Made by a program: the position numbers. Of a stretch of 20,528 bases of DNA, positions 1 to 3,000 are shown piece after piece. Numbering within the stretch: position 1 is the stretch's first letter; each line of letters opens with the position of its first letter. Origin of the DNA: a virus (Duplodnaviria > Heunggongvirae > Uroviricota > Caudoviricetes); the IMG/VR virus record IMGVR_UViG_2778261537_000015, positions 1 through 20,528 of that record. One strand, given 5' to 3'.

Positions 1-3000
1 ATGGCACTGAATATTCCATTCAGAAATGCGTACTATCGTTTTGCATCCAGTTACTCATTTCTCTTTTTTATTTCCTGGTCGCTGTGGTGGTCGTTATACG
101 CTATTTGGCTGAAAGGACATCTAGGGTTGACAGGGACGGAATTAGGTACACTTTATTCGGTCAACCAGTTTACCAGCATTCTATTTATGATGTTCTACGG
201 CATCGTTCAGGATAAACTCGGTCTGAAGAAACCGCTCATCTGGTGTATGAGTTTCATCCTGGTCTTGACCGGACCGTTTATGATTTACGTTTATGAACCG
301 TTACTGCAAAGCAATTTTTCTGTAGGTCTAATTCTGGGGGCGCTCTTTTTTGGCCTGGGGTATCTGGCGGGATGCGGTTTGCTTGACAGCTTCACCGAAA
401 AAATGGCGCGAAATTTTCATTTCGAATATGGAACAGCGCGCGCCTGGGGATCTTTTGGCTATGCTATTGGCGCGTTCTTTGCCGGCATATTTTTTAGTAT
501 CAGTCCCCATATCAACTTCTGGTTGGTCTCGCTATTTGGCGCTGTATTTATGATGATCAACATGTGTTTTAAAGATAAGGATCACCAGTGCGTAGCGGCG
601 GATGCGGGAGGGGTAAAAAAAGAGGATTTTATCGCAGTTTTCAAGGATCGAAACTTCTGGGTTTTCGTCATATTTATTGTGGGGACGTGGTCTTTCTATA
701 ACATTTTTGATCAACAACTTTTTCCTGTCTTTTATGCAGGTTTATTCGAATCACACGATGTAGGAACGCGCCTGTATGGTTATCTCAACTCATTCCAGGT
801 GGTACTCGAAGCGCTATGCATGGCGATTATTCCTTTCTTTGTGAATCGGGTAGGGCCAAAAAATGCATTACTTATCGGTGTTGTGATTATGGCGTTGCGT
901 ATCCTTTCCTGCGCGCTGTTCGTTAACCCCTGGATTATTTCATTAGTGAAGCTGTTACATGCTATTGAGGTTCCACTTTGTGTCATATCCGTCTTCAAAT
1001 ACAGCGAGGCAAATTTTGATAAGCGCCTGTCGTCGACGATCTTTCTGATTGGTTTTCAAATTGCCAGTTCGCTTGGGATTGTGCTGCTTTCAACGCCGAC
1101 TGGGATACTCTTTGACCACGCAGGCTACCAGACAGTTTTCTTCGCAATTTCGGGTATTGTCTGCCTGATGTTGCTATTTGGCATTTTCTTCTTGAGTAAA
1201 AAACGCGAGCAAATAGTTATGGAAACGCCTGTACCTTCAGCAATATAGACGTAAACTTTTCCGGTTGTTGTCGATATCTCCCTATCCCTCAACCGGAAAA
1301 TAATAATACTAAAGTGCTTAGCCCTGCTAATAATCACCTAATCCAAACGCCTCATTCATGTTCTGGTACAGTCGCTCAAATGTACTTCAGATGCGCGGTT
1401 CGCTGATTTCCAGGACATTGTCGTCATTCAGCGACCTGTCCCGTGTATCACGGTCCTGCGAATTCATCAAGGAATGCATTGCGGAGTGAAGTATCGAGTC
1501 ACGCCATATTTCGCTATCAGGATTCTGTGTGATGGTTACATCGCCCGGCCCAGGGCTGTTTAGTCATCAGCGCTTTCTGACAGTGCTGAGATTTCAACCT
1601 GTTGCAGTAAAAATGAGTAGATATAAGGCAAGTGTGCTGCCAAACCTATCTTTTACGGGGTGAAGGTAGATTTCGTTTGAAGGGTATCTGGTGTCCCCTG
1701 CAGACATCTACTTGAGGCGGCAGGGGATTGATTGGAATGGTATTTTTTGGATGTGAAAAATATTTTACCCGCTATTTTACCCATTGGCGCGGCTTAAGAG
1801 CTTATTTTTGAATTCACAATGGTCACGATATAACCATCTTGCTCGCCCGTGGATAACTTTGGCTTTAGGCAGGTCTCCGGACTTAATCCGGTCATAGATG
1901 AAGGTTTTACCGAAGCCAGTATCGGCCATGATGAATTTCAAATCAACCAGTGAATCAGGTTGTAGTTCGTGTTGCATGAGTGCTATCTCCGAATAGGGAA
2001 TCGAACCTGCAAATCAGGCAATAAAAAACCGCCATCAGGCGTTTTTGTGTTCTTTCAGTTCTTCAATTCGAATATTGGTTACGTCTGCATGTGCTATCTG
2101 CGCCCATATCATCCAGTGGTTATAGCAGTCGTTGATGTCCTCTGCTTCGATAACTCTGTTGAATGGTTCTCCATTCCATTCACCTGTGACTCGGAAGTGC
2201 ATTTATCATCTCCATAAAACAAAACTCGCCGTAGCGAGTTCAGATAAAAGAAATCCCCGCGAGTGCGAGGATTGTTATTCATTGCCGATATTTACCTTTA
2301 TCGCGAACACCTTTACCGGTTTATCGCCGAAGTGCAGATGTGTGATTGTCTTGATTTCATATCCGTCATACGGAACATCAATTCTGCGGCTGGAGTCGTC
2401 GCGCTTCGGATATCCCTTTGTGATAATCAGGCGGTCATACTCCCGGAACATAATTCGCTTATTCCAATAGTCATTACACAGGCGATACTCTTCCGTTTTC
2501 TCCCCGCGAATCATGGCATCGAAGTATTCACCTTTGACAGCAAGTTGCAGGTTAGCCACGACCTTCCTCCTTTGGCTTGTGAATTTGTATCGTCATGCCG
2601 CTTTGAGTGGTGACTACAACGACAGAACCAGGCTGAAGACTGTTAAGATTGAATGCTTCGTAAAACGAATCCAATGCCAGTGCTTTTTTATTCTTTCGGT
2701 TCAACCAACGCCATCCCCTGCTACAGGCTACACTGACAATCCACTGTCCACTCCTGTAAGCCATATAAAACCAGATGAGCAAAACCTGAAGGAAGGCCAT
2801 CCAGTCAATAATTGTATATTTTGCGAGGGAGTCCATTACTTCACCTCCTGCGGCGGTTCTGGTAGCGGCATCCAGTGAGTTGCCTGCTCAATACCATTAC
2901 CCGGCTTAATCGTTGCTTCTCCTCGCCGGAATGTGCTTCCTGTATAGCGTGCGGAGCATATTAGCGGTTCAACCAGAGAGCTATCGAAATTCACCGAAAT

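What the first reader, a model, noticed from the sequence alone, without database searches (positions are those of the whole stretch)
1249..1688. ~440-bp non-coding junction between cscB and the element
The region has no convincing ORF, only a large inverted repeat (1257-1300) and short ORF fragments, and may be the scar of a rearrangement that placed the sucrose locus beside the argW element.
Basis: inference. Interest (0 to 1): 0.2.

Follow-up and report, generated by a model that had tools for sequence, protein, structure and literature searches.

The report
Decayed spacer between cscB and argW
The 440 bases are the ordinary, neutrally decaying spacer that separates the sucrose genes from the argW tRNA gene in about half of all E. 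coli: a conserved hairpin at the end of the sucrose cassette, a dead fragment of an island gene (DUF4942), and the flank of the prophage attachment site.

Summary
Window 1249-1688 has no ORF over 44 aa, no Rfam match, and a perfect 11-bp inverted repeat at 1257-1267/1290-1300.

The region is not a junction made by the arrival of the neighbouring element. The same 440 bp follows cscB in 2624 of 5426 complete E. coli genomes. In 1415 of them it is fused directly to argW with nothing inserted. The prophage remnant entered later, by site-specific recombination at the 15-nt argW core (1689-1703 and 19446-19460).

The spacer has three parts:
- **1249-~1313:** the 3' tail of the ~5-kb csc cassette, ending in the hairpin. 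Its arms are invariant in E. coli and Citrobacter amalonaticus.
- **1336-1622, minus strand:** a relic of a DUF4942 (PF13708) gene, codons ~38-151 of ~281, carrying a stop, a frameshift and an internal deletion. It evolves neutrally.
- **1623-1688:** 66 bp of undetectable origin beside the core.

DUF4942 belongs to the conserved yeeU-yeeV-yeeW-L0009-L0010 module of tRNA-integrated islands. The relic's strand matches such an island downstream of argW. The csc-type and dsdC-type flanks diverge exactly at the tRNA 3' end. So "scar" is right in spirit, but it is an old scar, older than the present prophage. Interest is low.

The parts
1..1248 (+). cscB (sucrose/H+ symporter), last gene of the csc cassette; context only
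   Evidence: 415-aa ORF. Annotated as oligosaccharide/sucrose MFS transporter in matching genomes. Variable sites by codon position are 28:10:101, showing purifying selection.
1249..1313 (+). 3' tail of the csc cassette; homology with the Citrobacter amalonaticus csc cassette ends at ~1303-1313
   Evidence: blastn against L011-L013; alignment A1.
1257..1300 (+). Hairpin: perfect 11-bp arms 1257-1267 and 1290-1300, 22-nt loop, no U tract
   Evidence: Arms invariant in E. coli lineages and C. amalonaticus while the loop varies and carries an indel. Single copy, always beside cscB, in 2641 genomes.
1314..1335 (.). 22 bp unassigned, between the cassette end and the detectable DUF4942 homology; holds the breakpoint
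   Evidence: No homology. The relic's reading frame hits a stop at 1327-1329 (read).
1336..1563 (-). DUF4942 pseudogene relic, part 1: codons ~76-151 of a ~281-aa protein, with an in-frame stop
   Evidence: tblastn gives 50% identity, E 6e-20. Pfam PF13708 scores 37.1 bits (cut-off 25), E 3.4e-9. PGAP marks a DUF4942 pseudogene or fragment here in other genomes. Variable sites by codon position are 11:9:15.
1539..1622 (-). DUF4942 pseudogene relic, part 2: codons ~38-65, in a different frame with a stop; about 10 codons are missing between the two parts
   Evidence: tblastn E 0.008. blastn 73.9% identity to L004 6247-6334. Plasmid-labelled records match window 1344-1622 in two pieces.
1623..1688 (.). 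66 bp of undetected origin next to the att core. It is the sequence immediately 3' of argW in unoccupied csc+ genomes. It contains a weak terminator-like hairpin on the minus strand (1641-1627).
   Evidence: No significant similarity to the K-12 flank or to the DUF4942 5' end and upstream region. Terminator-like site (2 found, 1.2 expected). Most diverged segment of the spacer.
1689..1703 (.). Duplicated argW 3'-end core (att core on the torI side of the prophage remnant)
   Evidence: Exact 15-nt repeat of 19446-19460. Equivalent to pawZ in K-12. K-12 16-nt core CTGCAGGGGACACCAT (PMC2951348).
1777..1977 (-). torI (excisionase/RDF) of the KplE1/CPS-53-type recombination module; context
   Evidence: Annotated torI in matching genomes and in K-12.
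18127..19320 (-). intS-type integrase ORF next to argW (true start probably inside this ORF); context
   Evidence: ORF. intS is annotated under the match in related genomes. Same layout as K-12.
19446..19520 (-). argW, tRNA-Arg(CCU); its 3' 15 nt are the second core copy
   Evidence: ARAGORN; Rfam tRNA 63.4 bits.

Best explanation
Window 1249-1688 is the native cscB-argW intergenic spacer of sucrose-positive E. coli. It is a composite of leftovers and has no function of its own beyond the first ~65 bp.

1. **1249-~1313** belongs to the ~5-kb csc cassette. It carries a conserved stem-loop just after the cscB stop codon. This most likely forms in the 3' end of the cscKB transcript and protects or ends it. 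That role is inferred, and the hairpin is not a canonical intrinsic terminator.
2. **1336-1622 (minus strand)** is a dead fragment of a DUF4942 gene. DUF4942 is a member of the conserved yeeU/yeeV/yeeW/L0009/L0010 module found toward the tRNA-distal end of CP4/PAI-type islands.
3. **1623-1688** is 66 bp of unrecognisable sequence that directly follows the 3' end of argW when the site is empty.

Most likely history (inferred): an island once sat in argW with the usual orientation. Deletions removed everything between the tRNA end and codon ~38 of DUF4942. Everything beyond codon ~151 was lost together with the island's far end, dsdC and the 5' part of dsdX when the csc cassette was fixed there.

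Much later (shown): an IntS/TorI-type prophage integrated at the 15-nt argW core. This split the spacer from the tRNA without altering it. The prophage was then reduced to the present 17.7-kb remnant.
For: **Shown**
- The spacer accompanies cscB in 2624 of 5426 genomes. The hairpin is present in 2641, always single copy.
- 1415 genomes have the spacer fused directly to argW (L007).
- An alternative dsdC-type flank is fused to argW in 912 genomes. The two flanks are unrelated right up to the tRNA 3' end.
- The DUF4942 identity is supported by tblastn, blastn and Pfam above the gathering score.
- The relic is truncated at both ends and has a stop, a frameshift and a ~10-codon gap.
- Evolution is neutral. 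Spacer divergence tracks cscB third positions: L007 89.7/92.2/84.8% against 90.6%; L010 76.6/75.4/61.5% against 80.3%.
- L007 has a 6-bp indel and L010 has large deletions.
- Variable sites fall 11:9:15 by codon position, against 28:10:101 in cscB.
- The ORF length differs among strains, 44-131 aa.
- The cassette boundary and the invariant hairpin arms are seen in C. amalonaticus, where csc sits at another locus next to fbp-mpl.
- DUF4942 sits after cbtA/DUF5983/DUF957 in the EcN island. It equals L0010/orf56 of the LEE and SRL islands (PMC6980539).
- The spacer is dispensable. The EHEC LCV10B deletion runs from z3622 to beyond cscR and removes the whole spacer in a viable strain (PMC7486766; mapped).

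**Inferred**
- The relic is on the same strand as argW and lies 3' of it. This is the arrangement of the same module in CP4-57 downstream of ssrA (my own knowledge of K-12).
Against: - No integrase, no second (distal) core copy and no other island gene survive on the csc side. The island history therefore rests on one gene fragment, its orientation and the position of the haplotype boundary.
- The 66 bp beside the tRNA could not be matched to anything.
- No close full-length donor of the relic exists among 5.8 billion proteins. Only fragments of this same locus were returned.
- The hairpin lacks a U tract and has a 22-nt loop, so its role in the transcript is unproven.
- The hairpin arms never vary, so there is no covariation evidence for an RNA structure rather than a DNA structure.
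Confidence: 0.8

Rival explanations
1. The spacer is a scar created when the present element, or a rearrangement linked to it, brought csc next to the argW prophage.
For: The region lies exactly between cscB and the element's att core and contains pseudogene debris.
Against: The identical spacer is fused directly to an intact argW in 1415 genomes, many 100% identical over the reconstructed 430-bp empty site. Different elements occupy the same core in other csc+ strains: P22-like in L002 and L006, and a z3622-recombinase element in O157. The spacer is unchanged in all of them.
Confidence: 0.03
2. The region encodes a functional small protein (a DUF4942 N-terminal fragment of 60-85 aa, as annotated in O157 and others) or an sRNA.
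For: PGAP calls a 60-aa DUF4942 CDS in O157. Clusters of 60-85-aa ORFs are seen on hundreds of contigs. There is one promoter-like site on the minus strand at 1330-1303.
Against: - The ORF is interrupted in this window (30 aa, stop at 1384-1386) and its length varies from 44 to 131 aa among strains.
- Substitutions are evenly spread over codon positions.
- L010 has lost most of it.
- Rfam finds nothing.
- Promoter-like sites are fewer than in shuffles, 1 against 2.2.
- A viable EHEC deletion removes the region (PMC7486766).
Confidence: 0.04
3. The DUF4942 fragment did not come from an island resident at argW. It was carried in together with the csc cassette from the donor, or it was pasted in by illegitimate recombination unrelated to tRNA integration.
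For: No integrase or distal core copy remains. The relic is only ~72-76% identical to present E. coli DUF4942 genes. No close full-length relative was found.
Against: The csc cassette in C. amalonaticus ends ~25 bp before the relic and carries no DUF4942 sequence. The relic's strand and position relative to argW match the standard island layout. The csc-type and dsdC-type haplotypes diverge exactly at the tRNA 3' end, as expected after site-specific integration.
Confidence: 0.2
4. The inverted repeat is a canonical Rho-independent terminator, or alternatively a copy of a dispersed repeat (REP/MITE) or a recombination site that mobilises the csc cassette.
For: It starts 8 nt after the cscB stop codon, folds stably, and lies at the edge of the cassette shared between genera. 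A hairpin without a U tract also follows cscB in Rosenbergiella.
Against: - The terminator scan does not call it: the loop is 22 nt and the stem is followed by AAAAUAAUAA, not a U run.
- It is single copy per genome, so it is not a dispersed repeat.
- No matching repeat occurs at the other cassette end or elsewhere in the fetched loci.
Confidence: 0.15

Closest known systems
argW-dsdCXA / cscRAKB variable region of E. coli (Jahreis et al. 2002; Moritz & Welch 2006, as cited in PMC11251922, PMC4366372, PMC3032704)
   Same: Same locus. csc lies between the argW region and a truncated dsdX, at a recognised recombination hot spot.
   Different: The accessible papers do not describe the make-up of the 440-bp cscB-argW spacer (hairpin, DUF4942 relic, 66-bp flank). 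The two primary papers were not held in the library, so I could not check them.
KplE1/CPS-53 attachment junction on the torI side in K-12 (pawZ core, torI, then dsdC)
   Same: Same duplicated argW core, the same torI and IntS-type module, and the same TATTTTACCC repeats on the prophage arm (PMC2951348).
   Different: The bacterial flank is 95 bp leading to dsdC in K-12. Here it is 440 bp leading to cscB, and the two flanks are unrelated. The core identity is 15 of 16 nt here.
DUF4942 (PF13708) genes such as L0010 of the LEE island, orf56 of the SRL island and WP_001529401.1 of EcN
   Same: Significant sequence and profile similarity over codons ~38-151.
   Different: The relic is truncated at both ends, frameshifted, stop-containing and neutrally evolving. 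It is 50% aa and 72-76% nt identical, and none of the neighbouring island genes remain.
Decayed tRNA-linked islands and prophages of E. coli (CP4-44, CP4-57, CP4-6)
   Same: A gene of the conserved toxin-antitoxin-adjacent module lies downstream of a tRNA gene on the same strand, with progressive deletion.
   Different: Here the decay is almost complete, with ~290 bp left. No integrase or direct repeat remains, so membership cannot be demonstrated.

Membership tests
DUF4942 (PF13708) gene | Profile match above Pfam's gathering score | tested here: met
   37.1 bits against a cut-off of 25, E 3.4e-9, profile positions 5-62 of 190. tblastn E 6e-20 to the EcN protein.
DUF4942 (PF13708) gene | Intact full-length reading frame (~280 aa) | tested here: not met
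   Only codons ~38-151 are detectable. There are two frames, two stops and a ~10-codon gap. The longest ORF in this window is 30 aa.
DUF4942 (PF13708) gene | Purifying selection on the protein | tested here: not met
   Variable sites are 11:9:15 by codon position, against 28:10:101 in cscB. L010 has large deletions.
Prophage att junction of the KplE1/IntS-TorI type at argW | Duplicated core identical to the 3' end of argW at both ends of the element | tested here: met
   TGGTGTCCCCTGCAG at 1689-1703 and 19446-19460. Expected 0.39 matches with up to 3 mismatches by chance.
Prophage att junction of the KplE1/IntS-TorI type at argW | torI next to one core, intS next to the tRNA | tested here: met
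   torI at 1777-1977 (-), integrase ORF at 18127-19320 (-). Same order as K-12.
Prophage att junction of the KplE1/IntS-TorI type at argW | Unoccupied site (flank + core + tRNA) exists in related genomes | tested here: met
   1415 of 5426 genomes, many at 100% identity; L007.
Rho-independent terminator | G+C-rich stem, loop of 3-8 nt, U tract directly after the stem | tested here: not met
   The stem has 11 bp but only 5 G-C pairs, the loop is 22 nt, and the tail is AAAAUAAUAA. The scan does not call it.
Known RNA family / sRNA | Match to an Rfam covariance model | tested here: not met
   No hit in 1249-1688 at the gathering threshold or at E <= 10.
Dispersed extragenic repeat (REP/BIME, MITE) | Multiple copies per genome | tested here: not met
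   One copy per genome in 2641 genomes, always beside cscB.
CP4/PAI-type genomic island integrated in a tRNA gene (relic) | Tyrosine integrase gene next to the tRNA, and a direct repeat of the tRNA 3' end at the far border | tested here: not met
   No integrase lies between the core and cscB. No third core copy (up to 3 mismatches) is found on the csc/dsdX side in L001 or in the window.
CP4/PAI-type genomic island integrated in a tRNA gene (relic) | Genes of the conserved yeeU-yeeV-yeeW-L0009-L0010 module, on the tRNA's strand and distal to it | tested here: inconclusive
   Only a fragment of L0010/DUF4942 is present, on the same strand as argW and 3' of it. Module order comes and PMC6980539.
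CP4/PAI-type genomic island integrated in a tRNA gene (relic) | Alternative haplotypes diverge exactly at the tRNA 3' end | tested here: met
   The csc-type and dsdC-type empty sites share argW and differ from the first base after CCA.

The most novel reading that the evidence does not exclude
No canonical terminator lies on the + strand between the cscB stop codon and torI (1249-1777). Sucrose-induced cscKB transcription could therefore read through the hairpin, cross the att core and run antisense to torI. That would couple sugar availability to control of prophage excision in the csc+ strains that carry an IntS/TorI element (at least 373 complete genomes have cscB, the spacer and torI contiguous). 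A more modest novel reading is that the relic proves the csc/dsd polymorphism began with a PAI-type island in argW. I put that second reading at about 0.5 probability, with interest about 0.2.
Probability: 0.04. Interest if true: 0.4.

Novelty: already known. Interest (0 to 1): 0.1.

Why it matters
It matters little. The result tidies the annotation of a much-used locus: csc engineering in E. coli W, and the D-serine/sucrose exclusivity in EHEC. It sets four boundaries:
- The transferable csc unit ends at ~1303-1313.
- The conserved hairpin is part of that unit.
- The "DUF4942 domain-containing protein" ORFs called here in many RefSeq genomes are pseudogene debris.
- The bacterial flank of the argW attachment site in csc+ strains is this spacer.

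The relic also gives a datable marker. It suggests the csc-argW arrangement is old, because it is shared by lineages whose cscB differs by 9% in nucleotide sequence. It may have started from a tRNA-integrated island.

Tried and rejected
- **Rfam** at gathering and at E <= 10: nothing in the region.
- **Promoter/terminator scan:** counts are not above the shuffles. The IR is not called as a terminator.
- **Local alignment of 1623-1688** against the K-12 argW-dsdC flank and against the 5' end and upstream region of the EcN DUF4942 gene: scores are below the shuffle means. The origin of these 66 bp stays open. By eye, the frame upstream of codon 38 resembles DUF4942 residues ~16-37 only weakly, and I do not claim it.
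- **5.8-billion-protein search** with the relic's translation: only 44-131-aa fragments from this same E. coli locus came back, and no close full-length donor.
- **Phage and plasmid collections:** the only hits are prophage records that include host flank, and chromosomes mislabelled as plasmids.
- **Third argW core copy** marking an old island border: none.
- **Hairpin arm elsewhere** in the fetched loci or at the other cassette end: none.
- **Primary papers** of Jahreis 2002 and Moritz & Welch 2006 could not be read.

Full report
**What is at the coordinates**

cscB occupies 1-1248 (+), with its stop codon at 1246-1248. From 1249 to 1688 no ORF that lies inside the region exceeds 44 aa.

TTTTCCGGTTG (1257-1267) pairs perfectly with CAACCGGAAAA (1290-1300) across 22 nt. 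Only 2 of 300 shuffles of the 440 bp reach an 11-bp perfect repeat. As RNA it folds at -19.9 kcal/mol, z = -4.45.

Immediately to the right, 1689-1703 (TGGTGTCCCCTGCAG) is an exact copy of 19446-19460. That second copy is the 3' end of the only tRNA gene in the window, tRNA-Arg(CCU), at 19446-19520 on the minus strand. This is the KplE1/CPS-53 core described for K-12, CTGCAGGGGACACCAT (PMC2951348). Here 15 of its 16 nt are duplicated.

torI (1777-1977, -) and an intS-type ORF (18127-19320, -) sit at the two ends of the intervening 17.7 kb, as in K-12. The finding's right-hand limit is therefore exactly the bacterial side of an att junction.

**The spacer is older than the element**

- The 440 bp are present at 80% coverage or more in 2624 of 5426 complete E. 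coli genomes, always after cscB.
- I joined 1489-1703 to 19461-19675 to rebuild the unoccupied site. That 430-bp sequence exists in one piece in 1415 genomes, many at 100% identity, for example SE11 and O111:H- 11128.
- Locus L007 shows cscB, the spacer and tRNA-Arg directly adjacent.
- Other csc+ strains carry different elements at the same core and have the same spacer.
- K-12-type strains have instead an unrelated 95-bp flank leading to dsdC. The corresponding empty site occurs in 912 genomes.
- The two haplotypes share argW and diverge from the first base after its CCA end.

So the present element arrived by ordinary site-specific integration and did not create the spacer.

**Anatomy of the spacer**

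*(i) 1249-~1313: tail of the csc cassette.* The csc cassette of Citrobacter amalonaticus is ~81% identical and lies at a different locus, next to an MCP gene, fbp and mpl. It aligns with E. coli from 41 bp upstream of cscR to window ~1303-1313. That is 3-13 nt past the hairpin.

In alignment A1 both hairpin arms are invariant in the sequences that retain both arms, including C. amalonaticus. The loop has substitutions and a 3-nt indel, and homology vanishes just after the 3' arm. The hairpin is single copy per genome. It is therefore the last conserved element of the csc unit.

It has no U tract and a long loop, and the terminator scan does not call it. I infer a 3' stem-loop of the cscKB mRNA that either stabilises the transcript or acts as a non-canonical or Rho-assisted end. 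This is not shown. A hairpin without a U tract also follows cscB in Rosenbergiella.

*(ii) 1336-1622, minus strand: DUF4942 relic.*
- The 281-aa DUF4942 protein of an EcN island aligns at residues 76-151 with 1336-1563 (50% identity, E 6e-20, one in-frame stop).
- Its residues 38-65 align with 1539-1622 in another frame (E 0.008, one stop).
- blastn gives the same two blocks at 72-74% identity.
- Pfam PF13708 is matched above its gathering score.
- PGAP labels this stretch a DUF4942 pseudogene or a 60-aa CDS in other genomes.

*(iii) 1314-1335 and 1623-1688: unassigned.* These matched nothing.

**The spacer evolves neutrally**

| Comparison with the window | 1249-1335 | 1336-1622 | 1623-1688 | cscB third positions |
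|---|---|---|---|---|
| L007 | 89.7% | 92.2% | 84.8% | 90.6% |
| L010 | 76.6% | 75.4% | 61.5% | 80.3% |

L007 has a 6-bp indel, and L010 has lost most of the relic.

Variable sites in the relic's frame fall 11:9:15 over codon positions, against 28:10:101 in cscB. ORFs called across this stretch in public data range from 44 to 131 aa. In this window the frame is broken.

Rfam finds no RNA family.

An EHEC mutant described in PMC7486766 (LCV10B) carries a 5,637-bp deletion from z3622 to beyond cscR. Mapping its TTATCCGG repeat in L005 shows that z3622 is the recombinase gene beyond the core. The whole spacer is therefore deleted in a viable strain.

**Where the relic points**

In EcN the DUF4942 gene follows cbeA-cbtA-DUF5983-DUF957. 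In the SRL and LEE islands it is orf56/L0010, after YeeU-YeeV-YeeW-L0009 (PMC6980539). This is the conserved module of tRNA-integrated CP4/PAI-type islands.

The relic lies 3' of argW on the tRNA's strand, which is the usual layout. The csc-type and dsdC-type flanks part exactly at the tRNA end. I therefore favour, at about 50%, an old island in argW that was almost entirely deleted. On this view its distal part, dsdC and the 5' end of dsdX were lost when csc was fixed.

Three observations count against this:
- No integrase or third core copy survives.
- The 66 bp next to the tRNA are unidentifiable.
- No close full-length donor exists in the protein collection.

The replacement of dsdC and part of dsdX by csc at the argW hot spot is already in the literature (PMC11251922, PMC4366372, PMC3032704, PMC7486766). 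I could not read the two primary papers.

**Verdict**

The region is an ordinary decaying spacer with one conserved hairpin that belongs to csc. Interest is low.

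Noticed in passing
window 1761-1782 and 19285-19331: TATTTTACCC occurs twice in tandem beside torI (1761-1770, 1773-1782). 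Related GGGTAAAA / TTTTACCC copies cluster upstream of the integrase start next to argW. They look like the IntS arm-type sites described for KplE1 (PMC2951348).
   Followed up: partly
window 1704-19445: The element between the two cores is a 17.7-kb mosaic: IntS/TorI ends around a myovirus-type tail and baseplate module (DUF3383, baseplate J). No complete E. coli genome holds 80% or more of it in one place. The best covers 78% at 96.4% identity.
   Followed up: partly
L007 about 5425-5435, the matching core-adjacent bases of L010, and window 19440-19445: In the divergent csc+ lineages L007 and L010 the bases next to the core read GATAAA. This is the same as the prophage arm beside argW in the window. 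In those lineages attB/attP identity would extend to about 21 nt instead of 15.
   Followed up: no
L009 6460-6524 (Escherichia sp. MOD1-EC7003): Homology to the spacer breaks inside the hairpin loop, and the contig ends 65 bp later. This suggests an insertion or a different rearrangement at the cassette end in this lineage.
   Followed up: no
L005 5598-6224 (O157:H7) and PMC7486766: O157:H7 carries a different element at the same argW core, beginning with a recombinase gene (z3622). The published LCV10B deletion ends 32 bp inside that gene at a TTATCCGG repeat and removes csc together with the spacer.
   Followed up: yes
window 1927-2050 (+): Weak sub-threshold Rfam hit to sRNA STnc130 (23.7 bits against a gathering score of 55, E 0.49). 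It overlaps the 5' end of torI and the sequence beyond it. Probably chance.
   Followed up: no
L014 7237-7268 (Rosenbergiella metrosideri): A distant cscB (62% identity) is also followed at once by a G+C-rich hairpin (CCCCATA...TATGGGG) and then an A-rich tail rather than a U-rich one. This echoes the E. coli/Citrobacter arrangement.
   Followed up: no
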